In this document: piece by piece, positions 1,912-54,268 of the stretch | How positions within the stretch are numbered: position 1 is the first letter of the stretch | Layout: each line of letters opens with the position of its first letter | Source of the DNA: Laetmonice hystrix | Taxonomy: Eukaryota | Length of the DNA: 60,000 nt | Assembly: GCA_965235115.1 (NCBI GenBank) | Contig: OZ249436.1 | Span: forward strand, 27,530,001-27,590,000 | Direction of reading: 5' to 3' | The notes under the pieces: model-generated | Databases searched by the model: none | Seen by the model: the letters and a program-made list of their open reading frames with translations, nothing else | Told to the model about the DNA's origin: nothing | Translations under genes and position numbers: made by a program

Positions 1912-1946
1912 TTCATACCAACGAGTTGTATACTCGTTGTTCATAC
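1912..1946. mobile_element. Minimal P-superfamily-like remnant or excision footprint (21-bp core, 7-bp TSD)
   Basis: TTCATAC | CAACGAGTTGTATACTCGTTG | TTCATAC. Palindromic core at 1919-1939 with CA...TG ends between perfect 7-bp direct repeats. The same core family recurs at 43804, 52473 and 54228. Confidence 0.7.
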
Positions 1947-2320
1947 CGAGGTTGGAGCTGGCGGGAGGGGGAGAGGGAGGGGGTTAGTTATGTCGGAAAC
2001 GACGGACGTTCTCTGGTGCAATTATTAGTCAGGCAGATATGTGACAATATGTCGAAGGATTGTGCATTTTGTCATAAAAGCGCGAAACTTGGCACAGTCA
2101 TAGACCATACCCAAAGGAACAAGGCCAGAAATGGCGCCACGAGAAAAAGTCCCTGTATCACCGTTGGCAGCCATTTTAAGGTCGCCATTCCCGGAATAGC
2201 TATATCCTTCAATAACTTTGGAATTATACAACCGATTGCGATGAAAATGGTGTCTAATCCCAGGTTTTCTGGGTCAAGGATTGCGATAAAGGCATTTTAA
2301 AATTTGTACGGCGAGTAAAT

Positions 2321-2820
2321 ATGCAAATTACGGCCGCCATTACCGGAAATCCGACTTCGGTCAATGTCTCTGTAAACGTTTGTCATATTTTGTAAAGGAT
2401 GTCATCTAGACCCAGGTTTGCAAGGTCAAAGTATGTGAAAAAGGTACTTTCAGTTTTTTTCCGAATGCTAATTTATGCAAATTAGGGCCGCCATTACCGA
2501 AAATCCGATTTCGGTCTATATATTTTTTAACGTTTGTCATATTTCGTAAAGGGTGTCATCTAATCTCAGGTTTGCATGGTCAAGGTATGTGAAAAGGGTA
2601 CTTTCAGTTTTTCCTAATGCTAATTTATGCAAATCAGGGCCGCTGTTACCAAAAATCTGACTTTGGTCAATATCTTTGAAACCGCTTGTGTTAGAAAGGA
2701 GCTCGTCTAAACCCGGGTTTGCAAGGTTGAGCTCTATCAAAAGGTACTTTCAGATTTAAAAAAAGTTGATTTATGCAAACTAGGGCTGCCATCACCTATT
2801 ACTGAAAATCCGGCTTTGGT
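2321..2820. repeat. About 150-bp subterminal tandem units of the Academ left arm
   Basis: ATGCAAAT..GGCCGCCATTACC.AAATCCGA motif recurs at about 2321, 2475, 2627 and 2773. Inverted copies lie at about 5430-5720. Confidence 0.8.
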
Positions 2821-3358
2821 ATTCTCACACTGGAGTCCTTTCGGCAATCTTCGGCAGTATTCGTTCGTTTGGGGAAAGCACAGATTACATATCACTCATG
2901 GCCCAAAATGGAACATGCGTGCCACCTCACTCGTTAGCTTACTACACCAGTGACATAAAGTAGGTCTAGGCCTATCGAAGAAGGGCATCAAGCAGTGATA
3001 TTTATTTAAACTTCCGCTGGGTGTTTGTCATTAGATTAGCCACTGGTGCGGCTGGTGTCCTGGGCGAAATCCGCCATATAGCTTCTGAAAAGAAATCGGC
3101 CTAGTTCGGCAAGTGGGGTCCTCGTTAGGTTGATCCCCTGCAGCTTACCCAGGGTCCCGTGCAGGATCTCTGATCATTCATTTCAGCAAATGGGCGCGAA
3201 TGTGAGCGTGGGGACCAGCGTCATGTAATTTTGATGTTGTTCGCTTGTTCTAAGTAGGTGTCAGAAGTCCTCAAGTCGTCAATCCTTGACTTAGAGGGTA
3301 GACCTAGAGATGATGGTTAAAGGTTAGTTAGACCTAGTGGTCGTGGTGGTGGCAGTAA

Positions 3359-5025
3359 AAGTCCAAAGCTTATCAGTTTGTTGATTCGGCACAACCTGGG
3401 CCGTCCAAAGTCAAAGAGGCACCCAAAACTGACTGGACCAAGTGTGTTCTTTGCCAAACAGTCACAAGTGAAGCTGTGCAATACCCAGCAGAATCAAAGC
3501 CTCGTGATGTCGTGACGGGTCTTCTCAGGCTCATGAGCAAAATAATGCAACCGTGAAAAGTGAGGGTGGGGCTGTGGGCCTTCCTCAGTCTCCTGCGGGA
3601 CTGAGGCGTTGGATGGTTGCTGGACCTCCAAGAGAGAAATTCAGGAGTGGTTTGCAAGTTTCTTCCCTGAAAAGTGACTGTTCCCTGTTCTTACGACTCT
3701 TCATTGCCTGCCAGTCCAGAGATGCTAACCTGGATGAGTTCTTCCATCACGAGAACCAAGTATGCCCCCCCCCATCACTATCTCAGCATGGCAAGCTAAG
3801 ATCTGGATCAAAATCGGATCTCCTTTTGTGCCTAGAAGGCTATGGTGTAGTTAGAAAACACGATGTTCCATAAACCAATATGACTATCATTGATGGGGCT
3901 GCGCTAGTGAACATTCTCAAGCCACTGGCTGCTAAAACATTCTGTGAATATGCCCTGAATGTTGTCCGCCCATACATCCTAGGCCAACTGCAGCATGCTA
4001 ATCGGGTGGATGTAGTATGGGACCAGTATCTGGAGAACAGTCTGAAGGCTCATGCCAGAAGTAAGCACGGGAAGGGCATAAGAAAGAGAGTTGAAGGATC
4101 CAAGAGTCTCCCATGAAACTGGCAGCAGTTTCTACGTGTTGACGCAAACAAAACGGGTTGTTTGCATTCTTGGCAGAGTATATTTCACTGCTGGAGACTG
4201 ACAAGCAGGTTGTTACCACATATGGTGCACAGGTCCTGTGCCATCCCTCACAAGCTAGCCTACTAGCCTCTTTCAGTCACGAGGAGGCTGATACGAGAAT
4301 GATCCTGCATCTGGCAGATGCAGTGCACAAAGGCTTTCAGAAGATTTTCCATAGGACAATCGACACAGATGTTGTCATTTTGGCAGTGACAGCAGTAGCC
4401 AAGATAAAAGTCCAGGAGGTGTGGGTTGCCTTTGGTACTGGTCAGCACTTTCGATACATAGCTGCTTCTCTTGGACCTGACAAATCCAAGGCCCTCCCAG
4501 TATTTCACGCTTTCACTGGCTGTGATACGGTGTCGTTTTTAAACATGAGGGGAAAAGACCGCGTGGCAGAGGTGGAAGGTTTTTGAGGAGGTGACCTCCA
4601 CATTCTTAGCCTTGTCAACAGGACCAACTGATATATCTGATGCTCTATGACCGCAGGAGCAGGAAGGAGGATATCAGTGAGGCTCGGCAAGAGTTGTTTG
4701 CCAAGAAAGGACGTGCTATGGATGCCGTCCCTCCAACTCAGGCAGCATTGATTCAGCATATCAAAAGGGCTGTGTACCAGGGGGGCACTGCTGGGGAAAA
4801 GATCTTGAAGCGGTCCCTGAATTGCCATCGCCAAGTGACTGGGGATGGAAAGACCCCAATGACTGGAAACCATTCCGGACAACTCTGCCTGAGGCCAGCT
4901 CCTCCTCAAGGGAACTTGTAAGCTGTGGGTGCAAGAAAGGCTGTACAGGACGTTGCAAATGCAAGCAAGCAGGACTGAAATGCAGTGCTTTGTGTGAATG
5001 CAGTGGCAAGGACTGTGATGTGTAG
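3359..5025 (+). pseudogene. Disrupted Academ protein: N-terminal stub, XPG/FEN1-like (PIN/H3TH) nuclease and C-terminal Cys-rich (CXC/Cys8) finger; transposase core largely deleted
   Basis: Motifs occur in order across frameshifted ORFs: TDWTKCVLCQ (about 3428), QAHEQNNATVKSEGGAVGL...LRRWMVAGP, LDEFFHHENQ..PPSLS, IIDGAALV, VDVVWDQY, HEEADTRMILHL, DTDVVIL, FHAFTGCDTVS, PPTQAALIQHIKRAVYQ, WGW, CGCKKGCTGRCKCKQAGLKCSALCEC then stop at 5025. Multiple stops and frameshifts. Confidence 0.85.
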
Positions 5026-6436
5026 TTCAGAAATCCAGCCTTTTCATATCCAGAACCAGAAACAGTATACTGGAACTGTAAACCTGTATACAGCAAAAAT
5101 TATGTAGAAAGGCAATTTGGTAATGGATAAGAACATCATTCAACTATTTTCCGAGTTGTCAATGTCAATCCTTCATACAGTAATCTGGATTTCTATGGAT
5201 AATATTCTGTAAAACGGACATTTGGAATAGAGATTTGCTACAAAGTATACCCACTATACCTTTGTTGCTTATATTATGGGACGGCCAGTTTTAAAATAGC
5301 TGCCAAGAATTAATATTTTGGGTTGACCCAAATTCTGGAATTAATCTTTGAACCATAGTCTAATAAAGTCTGCAAAGTTTCATGCTTGTATGGAAAAATG
5401 CACGATTGTTTCAACAATCTGGCTGACTTGAAAAAAGTACCTTTCTCGTATACCTTGACCTTGCAAACCCGGGTCTAGATGAGATCCTTTACAAATTAAC
5501 ACAACCCATTATAAAAATATTGACCAAAGTCAAATTTTCGGTAATGGCGGTCCAAATTTGCATAATTTAACTTTGAACAAATCTGAAAGTACATTTTTCA
5601 TATACCTTGACCTTGTAAACCTGGGTCTACATGACATCCTTTACAAAATATGGCAAACAGTTGAAAAGATATTGACCGAAGTCGGATTTCTTGTAATGGC
5701 GGCTGTCATTTGCATAATTACTTTGCGTACAAATTTTAAAATGCCTTTATCGTAATCCTTGACCTAGAAAACCTGGACCTAGACACCATTTTCATCACAA
5801 TCGGCTGTATAATTCCAAAGTTATTGAAGGATATAGCTATTTCGGTAATGGCGACCTTAATTTGCATATTTAAAACGTTACCCAGGGTGCTCTTGAAGAC
5901 AGCCAATCAGAAAAATGCTTTAGGGTGGCCCATAGATTGTGAAACTATCAAGAAACTTTGTAACTATAGAAAATTAATGGACTTGCTAATATTTTGGGGG
6001 CGGCCATTTTTAAAATGGCCGCCACGGCTGTGAAATTAATATTTTGGGTTGGCGCCAATTCTGGAATTATTCTTTGGACCATTGTCTATAACTCTGCCAA
6101 GTTTCATGCTTTTATGACAAAATGCACAATTCTTTCACATATCTGCCTGACTATATCACTGGCAGAAACAAGAAACATCTGTTTCTTGCCACCCCCCGGT
6201 ACGTCCCGCCCCTTTCCTACTCGTCACGATCATCTTGCTGATTCCAGCATTCCACTACTAACTCATCCACGAAATACGAGATCCCATCCCATCACATTTA
6301 ATATGATTATGAAGAAAAAAAACCATTTAGGGCTGATTATTATAGTCCGGACTATACTAGTGATTGCATGGCGGCGATAGGTTGTCGCGATGGAGGAAAC
6401 AGGAAGTACTGTCTACTCTCAGTAGCTCAAAACAAT

Positions 6437-7759
6437 CTCCCCACAGTCCATGATGTTGCTCTCCTTACAGTCCATGATGTTGCTCTCCTTACAGTCCATG
6501 ATGTTGCTCTCCCTACAGTCCATGATGTTGCTCTCCCTACAGTCCATGATGTTGCTCTCCCTACAGTCCATGATGTTGCTCTCCCTACAGTCCATGATGT
6601 TGCTCTCCCTACAGTCCATGATGTTGCTCCCGCTACAGTCCATGATGTTGCTCTCCCTACAGTCCATGATGTTGCTCTCCCTACAGTCCATGATGTTGCT
6701 CTCCCTACAGTCCATGATGTTGCTCTCCTTACAGTCCATGATGTTGCTCTCCCTACAGTCCATGATGTTGCTCTCCCTACAGTCCATGATGTTGCTCTCC
6801 CTACAGTCCATGATGTTGCTCTCCCTACAGTCCATGATGTTGCTCTGCCTACAGTCCATGATGTTGCTCCCGCTATAGTCCATGATGTTGCTCTCCCTAC
6901 AGTCCATGATGTTGCTCCCGCTACAGTCCATGATGTTGCTCTCCCTACAGTCCATGATGTTGCTCTCCTTACAGTCCATGATGTTGCTCTCCCTACAGTC
7001 CATGATGTTGCTCCCGCTACAGTCCATGATGTTGCTCTCCCTACAGTCCATGATGTTGCTCCCGCTACAGTCCATGATGTTGCTCTCCCTACAGTCCATG
7101 ATGTTGCTCTCCCTACAGTCCATGATGTTGCTCTCCCTACAGTCCATGATGTTGCTCTCCCTACAGTCCATGATGTTGCTCTCCCTACAGTCCATGATGT
7201 TGCTCTCCCTACAGTCCATGATGTTGCTCTCCCTACAGTCCATGATGTTGCTCTCCCTACAGTCCATGATGTTGCTCTCCTTACAGTCCATGATGTTGCT
7301 CTCCCTACAGTCCATGATGTTGCTCTCCCTACAGTCCATGATGTTGCTCTCCCTACAGTCCATGATGTTGCTCTCCCTACAGTCCATGATGTTGCTCTGC
7401 CTACAGTCCATGATGTTGCTCCCGCTATAGTCCATGATGTTGCTCTCCCTACAGTCCATGATGTTGCTCCCGCTACAGTCCATGATGTTGCTCTCCCTAC
7501 AGTCCATGATGTTGCTCTCCTTACAGTCCATGATGTTGCTCTCCCTACAGTCCATGATGTTGCTCCCGCTACAGTCCATGATGTTGCTCTCCCTACAGTC
7601 CATGATGTTGCTCCCGCTACAGTCCATGATGTTGCTCTCCCTACAGTCCATGATGTTGCTCTCCCTACAGTCCATGATGTTGCTCTCCCTACAGTCCATG
7701 ATGTTGCTCTCCCTACAGTCCATGATGTTGCTCTCCCTACAGTCCATGATGTTGCTCTC
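6437..7759. repeat. 24-bp minisatellite (CTACAGTCCATGATGTTGCTCTCC), about 55 copies
   Basis: Directly visible, near-perfect tandem array with few variants. It generates the long repetitive ORFs in several frames. Confidence 0.98.
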
Positions 7760-7858
7760 GCCAACAGCTGGGTGAATTATCTAGCAGACATTCAGACGAC
7801 TATTTGGTACGTCATTAAAAATGAAATCAAAATCTGATACGACTGGGAAAAGGTAAGG

Positions 7859-8805
7859 CTGGTGTGTAGGCTGATGGGTAGAGGTGTTGCTCAGGCTTGA
7901 TGCAGTGGCACTGCTGCAGTTTCCCATGCCAGCCCTGGTGTGTAGGCTGATGGGTAGAGGTGTTGCTCAGGCTTGATGCAGTGGCACTGCTGCAGTTTCC
8001 CATGCCAGCCTTTTTTTTAATATAATTTTTTATTTTCCACACAAAAATAAGTTTACAACATACATGTACAATTTGCATGTTTACAAAAAGGAACAGGAAC
8101 ACACTCACGGGTACACACACAGGACAGGACACTCTTGACAATTTAAATATTAACAAAAACATACATTTACAGGTACACATATACATGTATTTGGTAGCTC
8201 ATTCTTTAACAACATCATACCTAGGAATACCAAAATAGTTCCCATTTTTAACAACCTTTCTACATACAGTCTACAAGCCCCAATAACTATATAATTTTAG
8301 TTTTATAATCTATTCCAAATTACCCCCCACTTTTTAAGAAATCAAGCCAGCCTTGGTGTGTAGGCTGATGGGTAAAAGTGTTGCTCAGGCTTGATGCAGT
8401 GGCACTGCTGCAGTTTCCCATGCCAGCCCTGGTGTGTAGGCTGATGGGTAGAGGTGTTGCTCAGGCTTGATGCAGTGGCACTGCTGCAGTTTCCCATGCC
8501 AGCCCTGGTGTGTAGGCTGATGGGTAGAGGTGTTGCTCAGGCTTGATGCAGTGGCACTGCTGCAGTTTCCCATGCCAGCCCTGGTGTGTAGGCTGATGGG
8601 TAGAGGTGTTGCTCAGGCTTGATGCAGTGGCACTGCTGCAGTTTCCCATGCCAGCCCTGGTGTGTAGGCTGATGGGTAGAGGTGTTGCTCAGGCTTGATG
8701 CAGTGGCACTGCTGCAGTTTCCCATGCCAGCCCTGGTGTGTAGGCTGATGGGTAGAGGTGTTGCTCAGGCTTGATGCAGTGGCACTGCTGCAGTTTCCCA
8801 TGCCA
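7859..8805. repeat. 76-bp tandem repeat, 2 + 6 copies, interrupted at 8011-8345
   Basis: Unit CTGGTGTGTAGGCTGATGGGTAGAGG...TTTCCCATGCCAGCC at 7859 and 7935, then 8353-8805. Confidence 0.97.
8011..8345 (-). mobile_element. 5'-truncated non-LTR retrotransposon (L1/Tx1-like 3' end) inserted in the 76-bp array
   Basis: The minus strand ends in an A-rich tail (T-run at 8011). It is flanked by duplicated GCCAGCC(TT) at 8004 and 8346. The minus strand opens with FLKKWGVIWNRL*, resembling the last residues of an L1/Tx1 ORF2, followed by an AT-rich UTR-like segment. Confidence 0.72.
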
Positions 8806-10114
8806 TCCCCCTTGACCGAGGGATTGATTTGTGGTCTAGGTCAGGCCATCGCCCTGCAGTGGGATTCGGTGCAGCTTAATCGGCCGATTGGAAGCGTCAG
8901 CCCGGATCTGCCAGCTTAAAGTGATTATAACCAGCCCCAGGTTCTATCATGCAGTTCGGTAGCATAGAGAATTTAAAGGAGGCACAGATGAGGGCAGATC
9001 TACTTGATTCTATCATGCAACCATGAGTCTTTTTTTTCAACATTTTTATTCGCGCTCAACCACATTCATTGCGGCGTATGCACTGTTTATTTGATAAATA
9101 GTCGTTACTGTGTCATCCATATTACCACCAACCAGGCCGTAACCATGGCAACAAGCCTTGGCTTCATTGTAAATATCGTGAAAAGGACGCCATCTACCTG
9201 TCCCTTTAGTTAGTATGAGTGCCGGGGATATCCTACCGGATATTAGACAAACTTATTAACAGACTTAGAGTGGTAGATTCACGGTATTTTAACCTATATC
9301 AATTTCTTCATTAAGGAACCGGTATCCGTTCCCGCTAGAAGACTGTCAGTAATACACCATGTTGTCAAGATTTAATGACGCATTCCGCTTTCACTATTGG
9401 GACTTCATAGGACATTCCTGAAAGCTAATAGGCCCCTTACTGAGAAACTCTGCTGACTCAACGTATAGGTGGATTGTCTGACCTATAACACTTCCATGTA
9501 CAGTGCTATTGAGTGTAATGTCCTGCAGTTACGCGGTATACGAGCGGTAGATCTATATTTACGTGGCAATAGCCTGCCGTTTTGGAACTACACTCGGGGC
9601 AGTACAACCGCCTATTGACCTGTCATCAGATTCGGTCAGAGATCAGTCGAAGGTAGGCTTACACAGGACTTATCAATCATCTTACAGAGGTCGGGGGGGG
9701 GGGGGAGGTCGGGGCCCTGTAATGTTATAGATTTATAGTCAATAATCGTGCCGAGTTTGTCATTGCGCGTCCAGGGCAGGCCGAGTGTAACAACTGGACA
9801 CTGTTTATACGACACGTGACGTGGAGTTTATTAGACACAGGGCTGGGGCAGGAGGCAAGGCTATTTGTCACATTCTTTGCGAGTCAAAAAAGCAGGCTGG
9901 TGACAAGGGACTGGGAGGGAGGGTGGGTTCTGGGGGATGGGGTTGGGGTGGGGTATGATACCCTTGGCCTTCCATGCCCCTGATGATTGCGACAACTTGA
10001 CAGTGACATGAACACGGACATGCATTCATGTACCACGTTACTATGCATGTCATGGCATTTAGTTTACACTGAAGGCCTATTATCTGACGGGCAAAATATT
10101 TTTCAAGGAAGTTT

Positions 10115-10188
10115 GAGGAGGAGGAGGAGGAGGATGAGGAGGAGGAGGGGGAGGAGGAGGAGGATGAGGAGGAGGAGGAGGCGGAGGG
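10115..10188. repeat. (GAG)n microsatellite
   Basis: Imperfect GAG/GAT triplet run. Confidence 0.95.
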
Positions 10189-13100: not shown

Positions 13101-15636
13101 ATAGATAGCGCAAGCCAATTTTCTACCGAGTCCCACTACTCGCCATCCGACACTCCAACCACTCGCGCTATATTGCCGCTGACCCATCCATCTGGAAACA
13201 TCGCCTCCCTCCATTTTCCCCTCGCTTCCCCTCCATTCTCAAGCCTGACTGTTCAGTCAGCATAATAATACTAGGCTATCGACCAACGACCATGGTAGCG
13301 TTTCTCTGCCATCAGCCATTCCCTTTCATTTCGCGTCATGTGCGAGGTGCCCTCCCCCCTCCCTCACCACAAGCACCCCCCACCCCAGCCCCACCTCAAA
13401 CTCGCCGCCCCTCAGGCTCCCCGTCGCTGAGCGTGATTCGATTACAGTGTTTGCGGCCTCACTCGCCGGCGGCAATGCCAATTTCCTTGGCTGTCTGCTT
13501 TGTGTGCCCATAACCCAACCGGCCTTCTCTCCCTCACACACCAGCCCCACCCCTTGTCAGGCCTTTTTTTCTTCTTCCCAATCCTCCCATCCCCCCCCAC
13601 CTCCTCCCCCAAACACCCCCTTCTCACACATAGAAACCCTGACCATGCATGTGCCTGCATTGGGGAGGGGGAAACTGTTACTGTTTCTGCTCAAGAAATA
13701 GCATGTCCAAAGGGCAAAGAAATACCAGTCGAATGAATAAGTAGGCCTCGCTAACATAGGCTCACAAGTGATACTGTCTATCGCTCGGCCGCAATACAAG
13801 CCTGCAGCAGTCTATCATTTGAACGTGATCGATAAGGAGCCCATTTCGACTGGATAGCGAGTGAGGCGTGGTGCAAAAGGCATCACGGTTGCGTGCAGTA
13901 GCAACAAAAAGAGAGATAGCCCTATGTATTAACGTATATTTGCTTTCCCCAAAGTATTCGCAATGATAGAATAAGCAATATGACTTTATCACTGTCGGTT
14001 ACAAACTCAAACCAAACCTTTTCCATTATTTCTATGCTCGGAGTAACATTAGCATCGGCGGCTAAGCAGATGACAATGTAAATATGTCCATAAGGCAGCC
14101 CGCGTTTTTCCTAACTCCCCAGGGTATAGACGTAAAATTATACTTGGGTCACTGTTGAATATAAGCCTTGTATCCATCTCAGGGTAATAACACCCCTCCA
14201 CTGTGCTAATGGGCGTGTAATTTAACTCCTCAGTCTGCGGCATTATTGATTGGCAAGCCGAGTTAGGTTGGAATCTTCAGGCGGTATAAGGTAAACGTTT
14301 CATCCCACTGGTCGACCGAGACCCCCTCAGAGGATCATACATCCGTCTGACATCTATTAGGTTTCCATCCGCCGTACCCAAAATTAATGGAAACTTTTAG
14401 AAGCAAGGCCTTAATATGTTTGAGAATAAAATAACCTGGAGAGAGAAATACTCGAAATCATGTTGAGAGAGTCAAGTGTTAAGAGAGATTCAATTAAGGA
14501 TGATTAACTTCAGTGAAAAATCATTATGAATTATCTATTCTGGCTTCCCCTTAGGACGGTCAGTGGTATTACGACTACACCATTACCAGGCTATTGGTTT
14601 AGGGCCACACATATGTTTTGCGATGTTAGACGAGAGAAGTTTTGCTGGGCCAGCCTTGACAGACATTCAGGCTGAAACATATCTATAAACAAAAGTGACG
14701 TGTTCTTCTCGCCGGCTTGTCTACATGAGCTAGTCAAGGTGGCCGTTGGTGTCAGTGAATCTAAGTGACCAGTCTCCTGATACCAAGGACCACCCAGCGA
14801 TTTGATGCGGCAGACTGGTGTTAGGACCTCAGTGTCGGAGGGTACTTTAGTGCGGCGCTGACCTGTAATCCGCGGCTTGATTTACAGCGGCATAAAGCCA
14901 TTAACGCCCTGTCCTCGTCTGCGTAAATATCGGCCCCTACTGCCGTCCGTGCGTTTTTATTATACTCCACAAGCCGAGTGTATAGAATGGCTGGGCAACA
15001 CAGGATGGCCGGGTGACACAGGCAGCGGTTGAGGAGGAGGGTGGGGGTGGGGGGGGGAGGGTCATTTTGGAGTCTATCTAGGTGGGCTCGGCAGGCACAT
15101 ATGTTAGATGCGTCTATTAGCTTCCGTTCGTCCTCGGTCGACCGCAAAACCGAGAGGAGTGACTCAGTTGGTGAATGGTAAACAGTTCGGCAGATAATTT
15201 AGCCACTCTGATAGCGGCAAACTCTCCTATATTGACACTTATCTCAGGAAGAGGTTGGAGGATGTAGCGCAGTGGTGTCGGAGGTTGGAGGAATGAGATT
15301 AGATACAGAATCTATACTACAGGACGCCCCTATATAGGTCTGTGTGGCTATCAGGTTTAACACGATGGCTTCTTATCAGTCGTTGCCAAACCACAAACAC
15401 CTATTTAGACAACCTCGTGGAATCCCTAATACATTTAATTTTATTTTGGGGATATAATTTTATTTGGGGGGGGGGGGGGAGAACTTCTCCTCACTATAAT
15501 GTCAACTCGGAAGTGAAAACGTTGACTAAGCGTTTGTGCAGATGGGAATGTTTTGCTGATTCGCTGCCTCCACTTGCCGACAGATGGTGAGCAGATGGAC
15601 GTGATAAAAACAACGAGTTGGCAGTTTGGCGACGCC

Positions 15637-15963
15637 TTTACTTCTCCAACCAGTCCAGGATCTAACTTTACTTCTCCAACCAGTCCAGGATCTAACTTTA
15701 CTTCTCCAACCAGTCCAGGATCTAACTTTACTTCTCCAACCAGTCCAGGATCTAACTTTACTTCTCCAACCAGTCCAGGATCTAACTTTACTTCTCCAAC
15801 CAGTCCAGGATCTAACTTTACTTCTCCAACCAGTCCAGGATCTAACTTTACTTCTCCAACCAGTCCAGGATCGAACTTTACTTCTCCAACCAGTCCAGGA
15901 TCTAACTTTACTTCTCCAACCAGTCCAGGATCTAACTTTACTTCTCCAACCAGTCCAGGATCT
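15637..15963. repeat. 30-bp minisatellite (TTTACTTCTCCAACCAGTCCAGGATCTAAC), about 11 copies
   Basis: Near-perfect tandem array with a single variant unit. Confidence 0.98.
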
Positions 15964-18114: not shown

Positions 18115-18382
18115 CTGATTGCCTTGCCCCCTCATTCTCTGTGTCCGGCGCTCTACAGATTTCCACCGGCGCATGCAAAATTTGTGAAACTTCAATGGAA
18201 ATGCGTAGCATTCTTAATGGACCGTATTCCTACTGATTCTTGACTTGAACGTACATACTTTGGATATGATAATTATCTGTTAAAAGAAATCCACGTTTTA
18301 TTGTGATTTCAGCGGATAGACACAGTCATACAGGTGTCTCTTACAGATCGGGGAAGGAAATAAAAATCTTATAATTGAATAT

Positions 18383-41951: not shown

Positions 41952-42949
41952 CTTGTGGTTTAGCGCGCCTGGTCTGAGATGTCAATTCCCCCTCGAGACC
42001 ATTCTCACGTTACACGCGGTTTTCTGGGCTGCCCATTAAAATAACACAGGTAGGGCCTATACGTTTAGGCCAAATTAAACTCGCTGATATTGTTCTAAGT
42101 ATGATACTTGGAACCAAACTCCATCGCCAGTCGAGTACAGAGACTAAGCACAAACGATTGTGACTTTCAATGTTAAAACGTTCTTATCATAAACGCCTAT
42201 TTCATAAGGACATTTTTGTAAGCGATTAAGGAGAAATCCACGCAAGGCGCCGGGGGGGGGGGGGGGGGGCTGCTCCAAAACATTGAAGGAGCATTGTCCA
42301 GACCCATGACCCAGACCTCAAACCGAACAAGAAGAGGCGTTCAAATAGTCGCATATTTCTAAATAAAAAATATTGGCCTATAGCTGTCCACAGATAGATT
42401 TTCTTCAGTTTAGGCCGAAGTATAGGGCAGCTATAATGCTAGCTGACCGCCTGCTGTGGCTCGATTCACCTGTCCAGACTCTATCCCAAGGGCGGCGGAT
42501 TTGATACAATAAACCACGCATTTGTATCAAATGTTCCCAAAGGAGGAAGGCTATAGGCTTAGGCCTATACCCTGAAGTTGTTCGTTTACAGACCTGCCAA
42601 CCTACAGAGAGAAAGGTTAAAAGTTGATGTCCAAAAAAACCTGGAAATTGGAGGAAAACCTGGAGATGTTTTGGGGAAACCTTGGAGATTACATTATAAA
42701 GCCGATATGAGTGGTGGAGAAACGTCAGTATGGAGCCACTACATTCTACACATGAAGTACACAACTTATAACATACCATCAATTTAATAAATTTAAAATA
42801 TAAACACACTCAAGATTAGTTTGTGTACATAGGTGTACATATACACGAGTTTTCAATTTACCGTGAGAAAATTGTGACATAGGGGGGCCTACCGGTGGGG
42901 GGGGGGGATCAGGTTAAAAACTGGTTATCCCCTGTGAGTTAGATCGAGT

Positions 42950-43243
42950 GAAGGTTATAGGTTTAGGGTTAGTTATATTTGGTTTTAGGGTTAGGGTTGC
43001 TTATTGCATACTTCGGACTAGTGAACCCTAGCTCTTATAGGCCTACTAGTGAACCCTCGGACTAGTGAACCCTATAATTATATACCCTCTAGCTGATATT
43101 TGCGGACATATCCGGATTACTGGACACATCTAGCTGATATTTGCAGATATATCCAGATTATACCGGACATATCTAGCTGATATTTTCGGACATTATATTT
43201 CCTCTCGGACATAACTAGCCGTTCGGACATATCTAGCCGGAGC
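42950..43243. repeat. Unclassified repeat-built element fragment: TTAGGG-like tract plus short internal direct repeats
   Basis: TTTAGGGTTAG and TTTTAGGGTTAGGGTT, then ACTAGTGAACCCT x3, TCTAGCTGATATTT x3 and CGGACATA several times. Confidence 0.6.
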
Positions 43244-43796
43244 AGGCCCTGGCAGCTGCTCACACTCCCCTATCCACGTGCAGCGCTCGTGAATATCGTG
43301 TGCAGTGCCGCGCACCTCGTTTGCAACGCGCAGCGAGCTTGACGTCCGCGCAGACATGGCGCGTGAAAGTAGGTCAATGTACATTGCCATCGCGAGAATC
43401 CTGCAATGTCGAGTCGTCAGCGGGAAAGGCGATCATAGGAAGCCATCATGATGACGTAGGCCATTATGTAGGCCTAGGCCTATGTCTTGCAGGCCAAGTA
43501 ATGTGCATGCACCCTGTGTCTGTCACACTGTACATTCTCTGGGTGTAGGCCTATGTCTGGGTGTGCGCATGGAAAGAAGTAGGGCCTATATCTACTAGCC
43601 TATATTATTGTAATTGTAACATTTAGCCTACTAGGCCTACATTAATTTACAAGCCGTAGCCGTAGGCGAAACAAAGACAACACCGATTTGTAGGCCTATC
43701 ACTAACCGATAATGTAGTAAAGTTATGCCTATATAACCGTTAATGTATCAACCAAGCGATAATTGACAGTTTGTCAAAACTGGGAATATCGACTAG

Positions 43797-43847
43797 ATCT
43801 AATCAACAAGTAGGCCTATCGAATTATTCTATACTCGTTGATCTAAT
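43797..43847. mobile_element. P-superfamily-like footprint (7-bp TSD) carrying a nested GGCCTA insertion
   Basis: ATCTAAT | CAACAAGTA-GGCCTA-TCGAATTATTCTATACTCGTTG | ATCTAAT. Removing GGCCTA leaves a 31-bp near-palindrome (15+1+15, two mismatches). Confidence 0.72.
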
Positions 43848-43855
43848 TTACAAAT

Positions 43856-44382
43856 CAGGGGCGTCGATGGGGGGGGGGGGGGTACCCCCCCCCCCAGCCA
43901 CACCCACCCACCCACCCACACTTTTGCTGGTGGCCTAAAACGGTTAGATCTAAAGGCACCTGAAGTTAGCGTATACCTTTCCTATACGGCCTTTGAAGGT
44001 CAAATGCACAGGGAAAGCAACCGAAAAAATGAACAGAATTCAATGATTATATATTAGAATTTTTTTTATTAATACATAGGCCAAGGCCTAATCATGTACC
44101 GGTAGGCCTATAGGCCAACAAATGAAACGCAAGTAAGGAATTATATCCTGATTGAAGTAGCCTACCTGTTACTATGAACTTTTAGACGTGTTTTTGTTTG
44201 ATTTCAATGACGATGTTGTCCACCTACAAACGTAGTGTAACGCAGTGCAGTAGGTCGATATATTGGGTACTATTTGACAACCCTTTTTACTTTTAGATGT
44301 AACATAAATCTAAGGTGAAAGGTCAAACACATATCAGCCCCCCGCCCCCACTTTGAAATAGGCCTAGGCAGCGACACACCTG
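43856..44382. mobile_element. MITE with CAGG(G/T)G termini and 5-bp TSD
   Basis: CAAAT | CAGGGGCGTCG ... CGACACACCTG | CAAAT. G/C-run subterminal tracts. The right end is locally re-duplicated (44383-44415). Confidence 0.6.
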
Positions 44383-46232
44383 CAAATAGGGTTAGGCAGC
44401 GGCGCACCTGCAAATATGCCTACGCAAATAGGCCTAATCTAAAATTCATAATAAATAATAGCCTATAGGGCCTACTGGGTCAGCCGCCTATAGGCCTAGA
44501 TCATCCAGGCTTTGGTCCTGAAAAATAGGCCTATCTTGGAAAAGATGTCAGCCACTATAGGCCTATTTATGCAGTTCACTGTTATTCGTGCAGTTTTGAT
44601 TATAAATCTTATCTTATGGCTTTCCTTTAATCCTTTGTTGAAAAAGGTCCAGAATTTGAAAATGTGCCCCAGCTGGGCTGGCTAAAAAAGGTCCAGAATG
44701 TGAAATGTGCCCCACCCCAACATTATGGGCTGGCGACGACTTCAAAATACGTTCTCTGACTCGGCTCAGAGCAAAACGCTACCGCTTTTAATTAAAGCAG
44801 CATAAATATACAATGTAATTGTTTCTCATCGACATTGTTAACTATTAACCGCGAAACGTGACGGCCATTCATTCGTCCTAATATAATATCGTACTCTTTG
44901 TAGCATTGTGAACAGATTTGTCACGCTGTTTCAAAACAATTTACTCGATCCATAGAGAATCCGTCTGTCCGTTTTATGATGTCAGAGTCAGAGACATATC
45001 GATGCGTCTACTGACCACAGATCTACGGATGATAAGAAGTTCTTGAAAGTCGATCGGAATGAGACCTTCTTTGGAATTAGATATGATATTGGAAGAAGGA
45101 CTTGAGATATTTTTGAAGGCGGATACAGTCGCCATCAATCAACCAGTGTCTCAATCACAGCCTCGATGACGTTTGATGTATCTCATGCTGCGTTGGCTAC
45201 TCAATCCAACTCCTAGGTCTGCCACCGTCTGGCCCCACAAATGTGAGAAGATGGGCGTATAATTTGGTAAGTAGCCTACTGTAAACAAATCATGTGCATA
45301 GCGCTGCACTGGTTGTGCACGATTCCCTCCACCTCACAATGGCAATGAACTGAGGACCGTGCAAAAAAAACCCACAGAAAACCATTTACTTGTCATTTTT
45401 CAGAGCAAAACCTCCTCCAATGACAATGGAACCCCTGGCCGTATTTTGGGTTGATAAGCTACTTTACCTGTATTAATCTTTACACCCAGCTCTGCTATTT
45501 TGCTAAACTCCTAGACCGAGGTAAGCACACTTTTAAATCAAGCAATTAGCGAGTATCTCATTAACAGTTCAATGACTTTATCGCGCGATGAACCAATGAA
45601 TTTCATTCAAGTTCAATTCAATGCCAGGTCAACAACCAGCCACTGAGCCATGGCATGAGACGTTCGCGTCATGGCGACTAATGACAAGTTTACATCTATA
45701 GGCTACTTATTCTGTATCTATGTGCATTGGACTTCACTTGGTACCGTATGGATCCAGTTGTTTTGTTGTTGACCCTGTGACAGACGGTAAAAATAATACA
45801 TAGGCCTAACAGTCCACTTTTAGTTGTTAAGTAGGCCTAACCATGGACAAACTAGATCTACCTGAGACTGCTAGTGATACTGTCATATCTGAATTTGACT
45901 GACGTTTGACAACTGGGACATAGGCCTATCTATAGTAGGCCTACCAGGTATACATGTTTATAATATAATAATGCACAAGGCGAAAGGAACCTCTAAACTC
46001 TAAACAAGTGCCATTGAACGATCAATACTGGCAAAGCCAAAATGATGATAACAAGATAAATGGGCCTACAAGTAGTACAAAAGATGACAACATGTACTTT
46101 TATTTCTTTCAAGTCTGGGGCGTTGTGCCCTTGAACAAGAATAGTAGAATGGATCCATTCTCTTGCCTTGAGTGCATGTCATGCAGGGAGAATGTAGGCC
46201 TTGAATAGGTGTGGCTATAGTATGTCATTATG

Positions 46233-46569
46233 CAGTGATATAGGAACGGGGGGGGGGCTCTCACGTGTGGGGTTGGGGGGGGGGGGGGGGTGGATGGGTG
46301 GGGGGGGGGGATGTCCTCTTCTAGTCCAAAATTATCATTATTTTATTAAATATCTAGCTATTTATAGCGTTTTAGATTCCAGATTCACACTGGTTCTTTG
46401 AGGACGGACGTTTGACAACTTTGTTTTCGTTTTCTTGTCTTTTTTTTTAATTTTTAAGGGGACCCCCCCCCTCCCCGATCCGGTCCTGACAATATATACA
46501 TGCAGTGTAGTTTGCTTTTTTCTGACCTGCCCTCCCTCTTCCACTTGAAAATTGCTTCCTACATCACTG
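46233..46569. mobile_element. Old MITE (hAT-like CAGTG termini)
   Basis: CAGTGATATAGGAA (46233) vs TTCCTACATCACTG (ends 46569), 13/14 inverted match. No intact TSD. Confidence 0.5.
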
Positions 46570-49500
46570 TTGTGTAAGTTCAGTTCAGTCTTCGGTGACA
46601 CGATATATAGCCTAGGCTATTATTATCTTTGCCGTCTACCCATACCATACTGTAGACTGCAAGAATTTTTTGTTTTGTTTTTAGACTGCAAGTATTGATT
46701 ATGTTTCTCCAGTTAAGATCAAATATTCATCTTATTATTTATCAAATTAAGCTAATATGCATAACAACATTCCCAAAATGACACATTCTTGCATATTTTC
46801 TGAGCAGAAAATGATTGCTGATATTGCTGATTCCATGTTGCCCCCTCCCTGTACGTAGCTTCAGAGCCCGTTAGAATGGTAGAGCTCTACTGTGCCTGGC
46901 GCTCGGATGGGTGAGCACGATTTTCCAGCTCACTGTTAAAGGGCCGGTCGTACTATCATCATTCAGTCAATGTTCTCTTTCAACATCTGGTTTTAAACTT
47001 GGCACGAATAAGACTCACTCAGTACAAGGTCCCAGCTTGGACGATTTATAATAAGTCAAAGGGCTGAGCGAATGTGCAAAGATTGGTATGCGACGCTTTG
47101 CGATTTATAACCACTGTTTGCCGAACAGTTCAGAACATTTTTAGCTACACACAACGGAAACAAAATGGGTCGTTTTTGTTTGAAGATAACTGTTTCTGAG
47201 ACATTCCCCCTATTTACGTAATGGGTTTGTATACTAGTAATTATGTGGATATTATTTCACCAGTACCGGTAGACAATTTTAATATACATCTGTAGTATAT
47301 AGTGTGTTCACTCTCTACTTGCAATGTATGCGATTGGGATCACGTAGTGCAGATAGCCTATCGGCGTTATTCGCGAGGCTTAAATTTAATAGAAGAGTAT
47401 ATTTACGTTCAATGAGCAGTTAGCGCACAAGAATATATCTTGTACGAATAGATGACGAGTCATTTTGTAAACCTTCCAACTATAAACAGTATTGTCATCA
47501 AGGAGCGCGAGATATGTGGAATGAATTAGGCCACTTTGTTGTCGACATTCTGTGCGTTGAAATTTACATTGTGTGCATACAAGATACAGGCCAAGGTTAT
47601 ACAGTACACTCGGTTTATCAGAAATGGAGCTTAAATAATCACAACTTAGACTTTGGTACATAAGCTAAAGCAATAGAGGGACTATTAGCACTGATAGAGA
47701 ATCTAGTGAAACATGAGGAGCAATATTGATGTCGCCATTTTTACATGCTGGTCAGGAAGGAAAGGTTACTGTATGAGAGAGGAAAGATTTTTTAAAGAAA
47801 TGAATGTTCCCCAGACTGAAAATGATTTAGACTTATCAGAGACAAACTTCTATAATAAGATATGAGCAGCATAATGTTTCTTGAATTACCAATAATATTA
47901 TCCTCATCTGAAAATTATGATGCCGGAATTAATAAAAATGTTCCAAATTTTGCATCAGAACAACCGATGACAATTACTCCATACGTAAAAAGTGGGATTG
48001 GGGAGGCCAAATATGATATGGATGTATACGTACTCGATGACTTCTCTGTATCATGTCACCAAACAGATGGGATGTCCTGGACCACAGACTTGGTCTGTGA
48101 TCCCCTGCCCCCCCTCCTCTTCGCCAGCCCCCCCCCCCTGCCTGAGGTGGCCCATTTGAAGACGGTCTTAAAGGACCGACTGGCTTCCATGCATGCCGAA
48201 CATTTAGAGGAATCCTGCCCACCGAGGTCAAGATTTATCCAGATATTGTGCCAACGTTACATTGAGAATGATCTGAGTTGAAATGAAACTAGTAAACTCC
48301 TTTAAACAGCCTTTCATCAAATCTAAAATCTTTGGGGTCTACCTCTGATGCTAAAGAAAAGTTACCTTCAATAACTCAGTTCATTTTGTCGAACTGAAAT
48401 TGAATAATGCAAAAAACATACTTGTTTTAAAATTTTGTTGGTCATGAAAAATGAATCTAAATCATAGTGGCAAATAAGGAAATGCTAACATGATCATTTT
48501 TGACATCGTGGCAAACTGCATGCCTTTTGGGAAAGTGTGCATGGACAAAATGCCCGTCGGCAAACTGTCCTTTGGTCTGTACCTGAGGTCCATCGAGAAA
48601 ATGTCTGGATATCATTTTCTAAGGCAGGTAAAGCTACATTTCTTTTTATGTATTGGATCCTTGATGAAATCATCTCCTTGTACATATCTGGTGCAGACGT
48701 GTACATGCCAGGCAGCTTGTCGGTTTTGAATGTCGCTAGACTGAGGAGGTCCATTTTGAGACTGAAGAGATGGTAGCATTCAAGACAAACCTAGTAAACT
48801 CAGTGGGTAGTTTGTGTTGTGTGTGTGTATGATAGTCTGACTGCGATTTTACCGGTTACTTTACACTTTCGTCGGGTCGGGTTAAGTCACGCTGAGGGCA
48901 GATTTTCCCGGGCGAGATGTGAACGCGTTTAGCCCTGGGTATAACTTAGCACAGATGGGCGGTTACCTCGGCCAGAACTCGGCGGACAAGTTGATGTTTA
49001 ACCTTGTAGAAGAAGAGAGACCCACTTCTATATTATTACTCAAGGCTGATTATCTATTTAAGGTACTGCTAAACTAAAAACACATTTTGGCTGTTTGTAT
49101 CTGATACTTGTTTATCAACTTTAAATGTGTTTATGCAGATGTGCCAAACATTAAGATCACGTCTAATCATTCGGATTTGAGGCTAGTGGCAACGATACGA
49201 CGATCTGTGTGACAAAAATTATGTTTCCTTGTATTCACATTATTCTACACTTGCCACAAATTTACCTTACTCTTCAAAACTGTAAGGCAGATTTCGCGTT
49301 CGAAAAGCATATTCAGGTAATCATTTGCCCAAAACTTAAAGAGATGCTTTGTTTAAAGCACCATTTCACTCCTAGTTTTAAAAAATATTTCAGGGGGAGC
49401 ATGCCCCAGGACCCCCCCCCCCCCTATAAATTTTGCGCCTATGGCTCTCGTTACAGCTGCTTTACCGCTGCATCAGTAGGATTTCACATCCTCAAAGGTT

Positions 49501-51059
49501 GGTACCTCAACAAATATGTGTTTATTTACCATTTTAGAAGCTACCATGTACCTCGATCTTGCTATAATCTCCTATTGAGTGAGAAAAATTGTTTCTATAT
49601 ATTCCTATAATTTTGGTTTGAAAATTACTATATTGCTATAATAATATTTTTTGTGTAAACGGCTGGGCACCCTGCATTATGAATATGGTTGGGATCTATA
49701 CCTTCGGAAAACGGTGTCTCATTGAACCCTTCCTTGTACATTTAGGAGTCCTACCTTAATATACATGTACCTACAATGTATATTCAACACTGATATTATA
49801 GATATTCTGACTAGATATCATATGTTCACTCGCATTATTGAAATATTACCTATAGCCCAGAGGGTTACATTCTGTCTTACACATAGTCCGATATGCGAGC
49901 TTTCTGTTTGCTGTCTACAGTTATTTACAAAACGAACATGTTGGACAGCCCAAAGCAGATTTATGGCATGTACTAGAGTGGCAATATTGGCAATCCATAA
50001 AGAAGTGGCAAGGGTGTTTGTTTACATGTGTTACAAGTCTGACAGCTCGGTGTATGTTGATGTAGTCATACAAACACAGGTGGAACTCTGAGGAGGTCTG
50101 AGTCGTCAGAAGAAAACACCATAGGGGTATGGAGCTGAAACTCGAGTCAGCCTGCCAGTGAGTGGCATGATGTACAATTTGCAAGAAGCAAAACGGAAGT
50201 ATTGCAGTTCCTTCATAGTCCGTTCACGCATGGATATCTTTCCAGCAGAAAAACCTTCCAAATATTTTATAACTGATGTTGTTCTAAAAACTGTTTGTTG
50301 GCAATGAATGTTTTAAATATACCTCAGATCTAAGGACTTGGCCCTATAATATCCATGTCAATAAATGAATGGCTTTTAGATGAATGCCTTTGTTCAGCAA
50401 TGACCCTCCCAATACGTTTAACCTAGGATAAACGCACCGGCGATATTTTTAACCTAGGTTTAACATACCCCGGGGGTAACTTAAAGCCGCTTTCAAAGTA
50501 CCCCCCATCAGGTTCAATTTCCCTCAATAGAAACGTCTAAACCATTATTGGTATATCCTAACTTGGTTACATTAGGGATACAGTGTCTAGAATGTGAAAG
50601 ATTGGTGAAGTAGATTAAGATTTGACAGTACATTGTAAACGGTGTATTCAGAATCCTAAGAGAGTAATATTACCCGTTGTTGATCCGGGCCATGGGACTA
50701 GTCCCTGGGCAAAAGATCCATGGAGACGCAGATTTTCAATGCATTAATTTTCTTCCATTAAATAAAGTGTTATCTAAACAAGTCAATCCGACAACCTTCA
50801 AAATTCAGTATATTGAAATTAAATCTGATAAACCTAGTCCTACCACTATCTTAAATGTCTTTTCCTGAAAAAGGTTAACTAACTGAGTATACTTAATTAA
50901 GATGCCAATTTCAATGGGCGAGGAGCTTCTTTATTTCTGTTATATCTGATAGTTTTTCCAACTGAAATAATGTTGTAAGAGTGAAAGCTTGGGTTTTGTA
51001 GTGAATACTTTTTTCGTTAGTGAATTCCCCAACCCATCAATTATCGCTACTTCTCCATT

Positions 51060-51260
51060 ATGCCTGTAAGTGATGTAAGAACTTTATAATGAATGGGCAG
51101 CATCCTTTTATAAGCAGCTGTGGCCTCAAGGCAATAAATGCATTATTGAAATCAATGAAAGGCCCAAAATATGTAGCTGCTCTTGTTAAATATGTATTAG
51201 AGCTGTATATCTGGTTTATCTTGGTATTTCTATGCATACCGGCCCCTCTCATAACATCAT
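51060..51260 (-). mobile_element. Decayed LINE RT fragment (Rex/Babar- or L2-like)
   Basis: Minus ORF contains FIDFNNAFIALRPQLLIK...PFIIKFL, resembling FIDFSSAFNTI.PQLL..KL...P.I..WI..FL. Confidence 0.45.
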
Positions 51261-52465
51261 AATATTCCTATACATATGATAATGACAAAGATTCGCTAAA
51301 CAAGGACATCATTAATTTTGTGCCCATGGCAACGTGCGTGGTCCGAAACTCTTTATTCAGCCAGCTCGCTCTCTTTGGCTTCGAAACATCTGTTGCACAA
51401 AAATGCTTGTTTCAAGTCACTATCAGAGCTCATTGGAAAAACTATGAAGCCATGCATCTCCGTAGTTCTAATGATCAGGCGGGATGGAGATTTATTTCAG
51501 AGCAATGTTCACATGACACTGGCTGCCTGTCATTAACTTTTTGTGAGGCATTGCTTATAGAGTTTGCTAATGATAGGAATATCAATATGTGATTGATATT
51601 CAAATGAAGGGTTATGATAAATGCTGATAGAAATGATACACATTCCTTAAAATTAATACAAATGCGAAAATGCAATGCTGGAGCTGTAATAAAAGTGCTC
51701 GCCGCTTGACATTGCCATCGGATGGAAATGTTTAGAAGAAAAAACTCGATAAAGCACAGCGTATTGAGTCTCACAAGTGTGCATTTCGTTGATAGAGGAA
51801 TGAAAATGTTACTGATAGCAATGATGTTTTGAGGGAGGTAATTCTCTTTAACCAGTGTTTTGAAAGTCCGTTAAATTAAATGATGGATGCGCCATGCACA
51901 CAGAGGTTACGGAGGTGTAGGCCCACTTCAAACCCTAGAAAAGATGACCCACATGGGTATCCCCACATGAGCTGGTTACGTAAGCTCAGCCGCAGAACAA
52001 CTGCCAGCCATGTAGAGGTGTACGTGAAGCCACTCTGTACGAGTGAAGCAGCGGGTACGACAAGTGGACGCTTCTTCAACTCTATGAGAAAACTTATAAT
52101 ACACATTAAATGACTATTACTATATTTTAATCTAATTTAAGTTGTGGATCAGTTTTAGTTTGTCTATAATGCATGTGCGGATCAGATATAAACGAGCTAT
52201 GACTCCATGTTCCAAACACGGTGAAAAGGTGCTGACTTACTGTCTCCTTTCTTTATTCTCCGAAACAATTTGATTCTAATATTACCAATATAATATGTAA
52301 TTGATCGGACTACGTATTTATATACATCGGGCAAACCAAGGAAAGTTGAGCTGACCGATTATAAATTTAATCGGTTAATGCATATAGACAATACACATAT
52401 AAAGTAACATAGGCCTGAGATGTTCCTAATAATAAAAAATTAATGGTAAATTGTAACATGAGTGG

Positions 52466-52506
52466 CTCTGACCAACGAGTATTTATTCTATACTCGTTGC
52501 TCTGAC
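52466..52506. mobile_element. P-superfamily-like footprint (27-bp core, 7-bp TSD)
   Basis: CTCTGAC | CAACGAGTATTTATTCTATACTCGTTG | CTCTGAC. Confidence 0.72.
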
Positions 52507-54227
52507 ACATCACGAACTCTGAGAAAGAATTAATTCAATAATGATGTATCAAATGAATGTTCATAAGTTCACTAAATCTGAATGTAAAGTTTTTTCCAAT
52601 ATACATTACATAGATTGAATATAGGCTACAATATGTATGTGTATACATCAGACATGTAATTGAAGCATTTTCTCCAGCAACAGTATTATGATAGGCGCAC
52701 AGTTGCTCAAACAGAGGGTCAGTTTATCGGTAAGAATCACATGGAGAGATTTACGATTTGCCTCTAAGCAGGCCATTAAAAGAATGTGCTCGGAGCTGGT
52801 TGCCTCGGGCAATTCATGATCGTCTTTGTTATGTCAAAGATTGAAGTAGTTTTATTTCTCAGTTTCAGTTGTTATTGGCTAGCAAACATTCCACAACGAA
52901 TAGTAATTAGTTAATTTGACCTATACAAAGTGATGATACGTCTGTTTGTAAATTTTCGAGCCTGAGATTGTAGGTTTTAAACAAAACAGCTTGTAAACAA
53001 ACCATTCGCAATCCGTTAGGTCTGAGGGTGCCCTATGACTTCTGTAGATAGCTGGATGTCAAGCATACTTAAGCACAAACCCAACAATGGAGGCTGAATC
53101 CGTATGCGTGTTGCTTCAGATGCTTTAAAACCCCCTAAGCAGTGTTCACGCATTTCACAGTCTGCGAGTGCTTCATTGTGGCCGGGGCCGGCGTGGAGAC
53201 GACATGGTGCCCGTGGTAACAAGAATCATTTGGGCTTGGCCTGCATCCTCTGTGTGTTAGGAGTGTGGCGAAAATGTGCCACGCACAAAGAACTATTGTA
53301 TTGTGGGGATAGCATGGCCACAATGATGCTTTGTTATGCGCCATGCTCAGTGTGAAGTGCTAACTGATTAGTGCAGAACAACAGGGAGGTTAATTTACAG
53401 ATTCACCGCAGATATAAACCTATTCCCCCATCTGCCCTCCTCCCCCTCCCCTCCCCCTCCCCCACCCCCTGTTTTCCCATGATGTGTTCAAAGTGGGTCA
53501 GCACCTATCATAATGGCCATGTTGCCCCAGTAACACGTTGGTGGTCTTGGTGGCATTACATAAAGGCAGGTTGAACAGGTGTGTTGTCACAGGTGGTGGT
53601 CAGTGACACCGCCCTGCTGCTTGGAGTTCAGTGGACAATAAATTGACGTTCAAGTATTCAAGGAAACTATAGCAAGGAGTTGACAGGCAGTCCGATAAAT
53701 AATGATAAATATATACACCAGTGTACCTCTTGTACATACATAGACTTTCATTGGTCGGGTGATTGATCATGTATAGGCAACTTGTATCGTAAAATTAAGA
53801 TCTACGTTCGGTTTGATTCTAAGAACTATGACTGTTCGTCATATTTGGCTCAAGGGGTGATGTAGCTAGAAATGCATGAGAGTAAAATGACACTTTATAA
53901 TGACCCATAGACGTCTGAGCTGCCACCAATGAAGAATGTGGAGTGATTTGAATAAGAGTTCTATATCTACATGAAACCTATCGCTGAATGAGTGTTACCG
54001 AGTTACGAACATAAATCTACATCATCATCTCAATTTACATGACTGGGGAAACCTGATCAAGAATCCTTATCGTAGACGTAGTCAACTCTTCTCATATCGT
54101 AGTTGTCGCCTTTTGAGACCACCACCTTTGACATTTTATAATTGCCGCAGCTGTTTTAGGTGCCAATATTGTTTTAAAGCTATAACACGTTCTTCCATAC
54201 TAAAGTCTGGCCAACAGATTCTTAAAC

Positions 54228-54268
54228 CAACGAGTATAGAATAATCGTAATGCGTTCTAGACTGCATG
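54228..54268. mobile_element. Fourth copy of the CAACGAGTATAGAATAA end, with a degenerate opposite end
   Basis: CTTAAAC | CAACGAGTATAGAATAAT...TTCTAGACTGCATG. The left end matches the family consensus. The right end and TSD are degenerate. Confidence 0.5.

What the first reader, a model, noticed from the sequence alone, without database searches (positions are those of the whole stretch)
1912..54268. Family of tiny TSD-flanked palindromes that look like P-element-type excision footprints
Seen: three 21-37-bp palindromic cores with the same ends (CAACGAGTATAGAAT / ATTCTATACTCGTTG, variably trimmed) at 1919-1939, 43804-43840 and 52473-52499. Each lies between its own perfect 7-bp duplication (TTCATAC, ATCTAAT, CTCTGAC). 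A fourth end is at 54228. All the 7-mers fit N-T-Y-W-N-A-N. Known: Drosophila P transposase makes 17-nt staggered cuts, so end-joining leaves up to about 17 bp of each TIR between the TSDs. The P-superfamily members Galileo and 1360 have CA...TG ends and 7-bp palindromic-consensus TSDs. Inference: these are fixed germline excision scars of a P-superfamily element that uses the same long-stagger chemistry. Three to four in 60 kb suggests many more genome-wide, too short for repeat finders.
Basis: partly seen in the sequence, partly recalled or inferred. Interest (0 to 1): 0.75.

Follow-up and report, generated by a model that had tools for sequence, protein, structure and literature searches.

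The report
P-type transposon excision scars, one nested
Three tiny palindromes in this animal's DNA, each between a 7-base duplication and with look-alikes elsewhere in the genome, are likely scars left when a relative of the fruit-fly P jumping gene cut itself out about 17 bases inside its ends; the parent element was not found.

Summary
Confirmed: three cores (21, 37, 27 nt) between perfect 7-bp duplications share one 17-nt end. A fourth copy of that end at 54228 has no partner in the window. Contigs of public runs from one sample show about 15 other loci per run with the same ends and varied junctions, so the family is dispersed and each scar was repaired separately. The 37-nt core, the only one above the 34-nt limit for a 17-nt cut, holds a nested TA-to-TAGGCCTA insertion. 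Without it the core is 31 nt, so it is likely a scar inside a scar. The junctions resemble published fly P-element donor-site repair products, and the 7-bp targets resemble Galileo's. Best reading: germline excision scars of a P-superfamily element cutting about 17 nt inside its ends (0.65). Not shown: parent element, transposase, empty allele, or fixation. Contig counts suggest far fewer scars genome-wide than this window's density implies, so the window may be a hot spot. This scan has already reported such scars in this genome (two other places) and in several other animals. This is a new family of a known kind.

The parts
1912..1918 (+). Site 1 left copy of the 7-bp target duplication
1919..1939 (.). 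Site 1 core, 21 nt: left arm 8 nt, 2-nt filler (TG), right arm 11 nt
1940..1946 (+). Site 1 right copy of the duplication
43797..43803 (+). Site 2 left copy of the duplication
43804..43840 (.). Site 2 core, 37 nt: right arm 16-18 nt exact; left arm about 15 nt (13 of 15 match) once the nested 6-nt insertion is set aside, giving 31 nt
43813..43818 (+). Nested 6-nt insertion turning the TA at arm positions 8-9 into TAGGCCTA; likely the scar of a different, TA-targeting transposon
   Evidence: word seen 25 times, 0.78 expected; 10 copies in 43501-45000
43841..43847 (+). Site 2 right copy of the duplication
52466..52472 (+). Site 3 left copy of the duplication
52473..52499 (.). Site 3 core, 27 nt: left arm 10 nt joined blunt to a right arm of exactly 17 nt
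   Evidence: contigs from other loci pile on it
52500..52506 (+). Site 3 right copy of the duplication
54221..54244 (+). Site 4: consensus-type 7-mer plus a perfect 17-nt arm, with no partner arm or second 7-mer up to the window end; a one-armed scar or the end of a rare longer copy
   Evidence: interior single-copy in contigs

Best explanation
The three palindromes, each between a perfect 7-base duplication and sharing one 17-base end, are likely the repaired donor sites of a P-superfamily cut-and-paste transposon that probably cut about 17 bases inside its own ends. Shown: the shared end, the duplications, a different junction at each site, and further copies at other loci. Inferred steps: (1) an element with this terminal repeat inserted at an N-T-N-W-N-A-N target and duplicated 7 bp; (2) its transposase cut one strand at the tip and the other about 17 nt inside, leaving each flank a 17-nt 3' tail of terminal-repeat sequence, as the fly enzyme does; (3) end joining trimmed the two identical tails and joined them blunt, on 1-3-nt microhomologies, or with a short filler; (4) this happened in the germ line, because the scars are inherited; (5) at site 2 a TA-targeting element later landed in the left arm and left its own 6-nt scar; (6) site 4 would be a repair that deleted the other arm and duplication, or the surviving end of a rare longer copy.
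For: Site 3 is 10+17 with no filler; site 1 is 8+2+11; site 2 is about 15+16 after the nested insertion is set aside. Fly donor sites repaired without homologous recombination show the same classes between the target copies: short microhomology, blunt, small insertion, and deletion past the target (PMC2895639 Table 1, section 7 read whole). The 17-nt stagger is described as unusual to P elements (PMC7776569 section 8). Galileo and 1360 make 7-bp duplications (PMC3698922 passage), Galileo with consensus GTANTAC (PMC4168063 passages). All 4 seven-mers here share its T2 and A6, and 3 of 4 end in C. In one search, summed contig depth on the site-3 core is 1044 (X1) and 843-878 (X3), against 57 and 45 for the local contig. 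All 12 of 24 loose-end rows shown lie at the duplication edges, with mixed flanks (agreement 0.49-0.78 in multi-contig rows). The piled contigs show at least 5 other junction types. Four of 5 tested indel rows are reproduced by joining two arms of at most 17 nt, and the letters put in (AGA, AGAA) continue the terminal repeat.
Against: No parent element or transposase was found, so neither the superfamily nor the cut was observed. The terminal repeat is known only to 17 nt (position 18 from site 4 alone), so a longer arm could go unrecognised, and 17 could be the repeat's length rather than the cut depth. Only site 3 fixes an arm at exactly 17. Site 2 has a second parse with a 20-nt right arm plus one extra base, using site 4's interior. 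One of 5 indel rows (2 left out at 52489) was not reproduced, and the AGA row fits either 13+17 or 16+16 on a 2-nt overlap. None of the 4 seven-mers starts with Galileo's G on the + strand (3 of 4 do on the other strand).
Confidence: 0.65

Rival explanations
1. The cores are extreme internal deletions made by the host (aborted gap repair or replication slippage between the inverted ends) of an element whose terminal repeat is only about 17 bp; the superfamily is open.
For: The parent is unknown, so 17 may be the repeat length. MuDR-type elements also span 4-10-bp duplications (PMC10045372 passage). In the fly, most wild-type repair is aborted synthesis plus end joining (PMC2895639 passage).
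Against: Aborted synthesis should leave many copies with interior sequence beyond the arm. Contig depth just inside site 4 stays near single-copy, and all three cores and the tested junction rows fall at 21-32 nt (site 2 without its nested insertion).
Confidence: 0.17
2. They are P-type excision scars, but the cut lies deeper (19-21 nt) and the arms seen are trimmed.
For: Second parse of site 2 (20-nt right arm with one extra base). Earlier scan notes report 17-21-nt cuts for another family in this genome and 18-20 nt in other animals (not checked here).
Against: Site 3's right arm meets the left arm at exactly 17 with no letters between. The second parse needs an insertion and assumes site 4's interior is true element sequence, while the first needs one substitution.
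Confidence: 0.11
3. They are ultra-short mobile elements (micro-MITEs) that were themselves inserted at each site.
For: Each has inverted ends and a perfect duplication, as an insertion would. One junction type recurs in 3 contigs of X1.
Against: All three cores differ, and the pile shows at least 5 more junction types. The recurring type is the one a 3-nt microhomology predicts. 21-32 nt leaves no room for the internal transposase sites that P elements need (PMC7776569 passage on end features; the rest is inference).
Confidence: 0.05
4. Chance palindromes or assembly artefacts.
For: Single hits of this shape arise in 4 of 40 shuffles.
Against: An exact 17-mer occurs three times; independent short-read contigs span sites 3 and 4; other loci carry the same ends.
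Confidence: 0.02

Closest known systems
End-joined donor sites of the Drosophila melanogaster P element (PMC2895639 section 7 with Table 1 read whole, plus passages; PMC7776569 section 8 read whole, plus passages)
   Same: Two trimmed terminal-repeat arms of at most 17 nt between the two target copies; blunt, microhomology and short-insertion junctions; ends begin CA.
   Different: 7-bp rather than 8-bp duplication; a different terminal sequence; natural, inherited and dispersed in a non-fly genome rather than recovered from Rad51-mutant crosses; enzyme not identified.
Galileo and 1360/Hoppel, P superfamily (PMC4168063, PMC2775673, PMC3698922; passages)
   Same: 7-bp duplication with a palindromic consensus (T at 2, A at 6, often C at 7).
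   Different: The word 'footprint' did not occur in PMC4168063 or PMC2775673; no long repetitive terminal repeats are seen here; the terminal sequence was not compared with theirs.
P-type scars reported earlier by this scan (e1-9334717 and e1-8074793 in this genome; e1-8655757, e1-9911650, e1-7810740 and skate reports elsewhere; summary lines only)
   Same: Same anatomy and same proposed mechanism.
   Different: One scar here carries a second element's scar inside it.

Membership tests
P superfamily | Transposase with THAP, RNase H (DDE) and GTP-binding insertion domains | not testable with these tools
   No genome held. No THAP or P-transposase Pfam hit in 237 window ORFs. Scars encode nothing.
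P superfamily | 7- or 8-bp target duplication | tested here: met
   3 of 3 two-armed sites have a perfect 7-bp duplication, none 8.
P superfamily | Palindromic target preference (Galileo GTANTAC) | tested here: met
   4 of 4 seven-mers have T2, W4, A6 (4.9% of window 7-mers do); partial match only, n = 4.
P superfamily | Terminal inverted repeats with CA...TG ends | tested here: met
   Cores begin CA and end TG; the fly element begins CA. That this holds superfamily-wide is recalled.
P superfamily | Long staggered donor cut (17 nt in the fly) | tested here: inconclusive
   Arms of 8-17 nt, one exactly 17; site 2 is 16-18 or 20; repeat unknown beyond 17-18.
P superfamily | Subterminal repeats or internal transposase-binding sites in a full element | not testable with these tools
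   No full element found. A 35-bp duplicated motif lies 46 bp from the start of the site-4 arm, role unknown.
MITE (mobile non-autonomous element) | Many near-identical copies of one length | tested here: not met
   3 different cores in the window and at least 5 other junction types in contigs.

The most novel reading that the evidence does not exclude
A non-insect P-superfamily lineage with 7-bp targets keeps exactly the fly's 17-nt staggered cut. Its scars are rare genome-wide but clustered here (three ends within 10.5 kb, beside a hot spot of another element's scars), recording a trail of local hops through germline-open DNA, with site 4 as the surviving end of the parent. The scars would then be a natural, countable record of both cut chemistry and germline end joining.
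Probability: 0.25. Interest if true: 0.55.

Novelty: new member of a known kind. Interest (0 to 1): 0.35.

Why it matters
The papers I read document the 17-nt stagger only for the fly enzyme. Natural scars let one read cut depth for other P-type transposases without purifying them, and they are small insertions that repeat finders are likely to miss. Four full-text searches listed no paper on natural genome-wide P-type scars outside flies, but subscription journals are largely missing from that library.

Tried and rejected
Whole-genome scan: no genome is held for this window. Collection scans with the 17-mer gave 67 metagenome loci and 1 viral locus. 0 of 68 had a partner arm with a duplication; 2 had a 10-letter look-alike downstream with 3-4 mismatches in the 7-mer. 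I treat these as chance hits. Pfam found no transposase: 96 ORFs of at least 55 aa from position 41000 on plus 4 from 3508-5022, and 137 of 172 ORFs of at least 62 aa before 41400, leaving out tandem-repeat regions and 35 low-complexity or overlapping frames; only sub-threshold hits appeared. The ORF at 47859-48278 has no homologue, so no nearby gene was identified and a promoter link is untested. No right end for site 4 was found in the window. First idea for site 2, an 11-nt filler templated from 43690: rejected, because GTAGGCCTA occurs 10 times on the + strand and the nested-insertion parse restores the arm. Candidate at 50416-50464: not counted; it contains an 11-bp direct repeat around a palindrome, and no other-locus contigs pile on it. 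Look-ups of earlier findings by sequence and relatives were blank. PMC10983969 (zebrafish THAP9; passages) gave no cut position for that enzyme in the passages shown; its supplements were not seen. PMC7165386 was not held.

Full report
Observation. The three cores and their perfect 7-bp duplications are at the stated places, and the fourth end is at 54228. The shared end is 17 nt, exact at three places. A motif-blind scan found 4 such structures in the window, 3 of them these; 36 of 40 shuffles gave none and 4 gave one. All four 7-mers fit N-T-N-W-N-A-N, which 4.9% of window 7-mers fit. A loose 12-letter search alone is not enriched.

Anatomy. Site 3 is a 10-nt left arm joined blunt to a right arm of exactly 17 nt. 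Site 1 is 8 nt, the filler TG, then 11 nt. The filler completes a small fold-back of the left arm, as snap-back synthesis would; with two letters this is weak. Site 2, at 37 nt, seemed to break the 34-nt limit for two 17-nt tails. It contains TAGGCCTA at 43811-43818. Earlier scan notes read this word as a 6-nt scar written at TA sites in this genome. In the window it occurs 25 times against 0.78 expected, 10 of them in 43501-45000. Setting aside 43813-43818 leaves 31 nt, whose first 15 letters match the terminal repeat at 13; that is the best value of the 32 possible 6-letter deletions, reached only at the three equivalent offsets. Site 2 is therefore likely a scar inside a scar. A second parse, with a 20-nt right arm and one extra base borrowed from site 4's interior, cannot be excluded.

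Copies elsewhere. No genome is held. Three public runs, all one sample, hold the region as assembled contigs. On 50350-54330, 26 contigs (X1) and 25 (X3) were laid; the 8 listed for each run are local. Summed depth on the site-3 core is 1044 and 843-878, against 57 and 45 for the local contig, or about 15 contigs from other loci per run (at most 18 and 17). The 12 of 24 loose-end rows shown all lie at 52465-52470 or 52503-52507 with mixed flanks. The 12 of 17 indel rows shown include, inside the core, AGA put in, AGAA plus C put in, A put in, 4 left out (3 contigs in X1) and 2 left out. Joining two arms of at most 17 nt reproduces 4 of 5 of these rows: the 4-letter loss is a 23-nt core on a 3-nt microhomology, and the added A fits a 28-nt core on a 2-nt microhomology. 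The 2-letter loss was not reproduced. Substitutions near alignment ends appear not to be listed, so these reconstructions are inferences. The family is dispersed and its junctions vary.

Abundance. A rough simulation says 7-52% of family scars would be laid on site 3 under lenient alignment rules. That implies tens to a few hundred scars in 517-599 million letters of contigs, or low thousands if the real seeding needs a near-exact 7-mer match (my estimate; the tool's seeding is unknown and it leaves some records out). Three per 60 kb would extrapolate to about 26,000. The window is thus probably enriched. Local hopping and a promoter preference are documented for the fly element, but no gene was identified here.

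Alleles. Contigs spanning sites 3 and 4 keep the features at full depth, some with nearby differences from the window, while two neighbouring small indels appear as paired half-depth contigs. No empty allele was seen. With one sample, fixation is not shown.

Site 4. It has a perfect 17-nt arm after a consensus 7-mer and no partner to the window end. Depth just inside it is close to single-copy, so it is not the end of an abundant MITE. It may be a repair that deleted past the other target copy, a class present in the fly data, or a rare longer copy. A 35-bp stretch at 54274-54308 recurs at 52334-52368 (31 of 35 letters) and is unexplained.

Parent search. 0 of 68 collection hits had paired ends. 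No P or THAP domain was found in 237 ORFs. Membership of the P superfamily is therefore inferred from the 7-bp palindromic target, the CA...TG ends and the arm ceiling.

Mechanism and comparison. In the fly, excision leaves 17-nt non-complementary 3' tails on both donor ends. End joining gives two trimmed arms between the target copies, joined blunt, on short microhomologies or with small insertions (PMC2895639 Table 1). The long stagger is described as distinctive of P elements (PMC7776569 section 8). Galileo and 1360 make 7-bp duplications, Galileo at GTANTAC. The sites here work like those repair products; membership is not proven because the enzyme is unseen. I put P-type scars with a cut of about 17 nt at 0.65, host-made deletions of a short-ended element at 0.17, a deeper P-type cut at 0.11, mobile micro-elements at 0.05 and chance at 0.02.

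Novelty. Four searches of the open library listed no paper on natural P-type scars outside flies. The scan itself has reported them at two other places in this genome and in skate, shellfish and other genomes; I saw only summary lines and did not test them. Verdict: a real feature, a new family of a known kind, interest 0.35.

Noticed in passing
window 2026-6153: A 4128-bp element with TAG...CTA ends, a 3-bp TAT duplication, long terminal repeats built of about 152-bp units and broken ORFs with many animal homologues, one named a Tesmin/TSO1-like CXC protein. Likely an AcademX transposon: 3-4-bp duplications per PMC10045372; the TAG end and motif assignment are recalled. It starts 80 bp right of site 1.
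   Followed up: partly
window 50416-50464: GTTTAAC-flanked 35-nt core with CTAGG...CCTAG ends. The 7-mer fits the same target pattern and the length fits about 17+18, so it could be a scar of a second family, but it also holds an 11-bp direct repeat and no other-locus contigs pile on it.
   Followed up: partly
window 52334-52368 and 54274-54308: 35-bp direct match (31 of 35, first 19 identical) between the interior of site 4 and the left flank of site 3, with a looser match over about 130 bp; an old local duplication or a decayed element end.
   Followed up: partly
window 42560-45943: Hot spot of TAGGCCTA (17 of the window's 25 copies fall in 42001-46500) that contains site 2; already noted by the scan as e1-9014747.
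   Followed up: partly
window 1902-1918: A third copy of the site-1 seven-mer lies 10 bp upstream of the left duplication, forming a short tandem repeat.
   Followed up: no
window 33825-34052: Two 66-bp copies 84 bp apart followed by a 67-bp near-perfect palindrome at 33986-34052; possibly a small element end.
   Followed up: no
window 6292-8874, 15576-16025, 17292-18194: Minisatellite arrays with periods of 24, 76, 30 and 38 bp.
   Followed up: no
window 44641-44733 and 49106-49553: Short dispersed repeats with many contigs from other loci and loose ends; the second shows joints skipping about 400 bp, as for a MITE.
   Followed up: no
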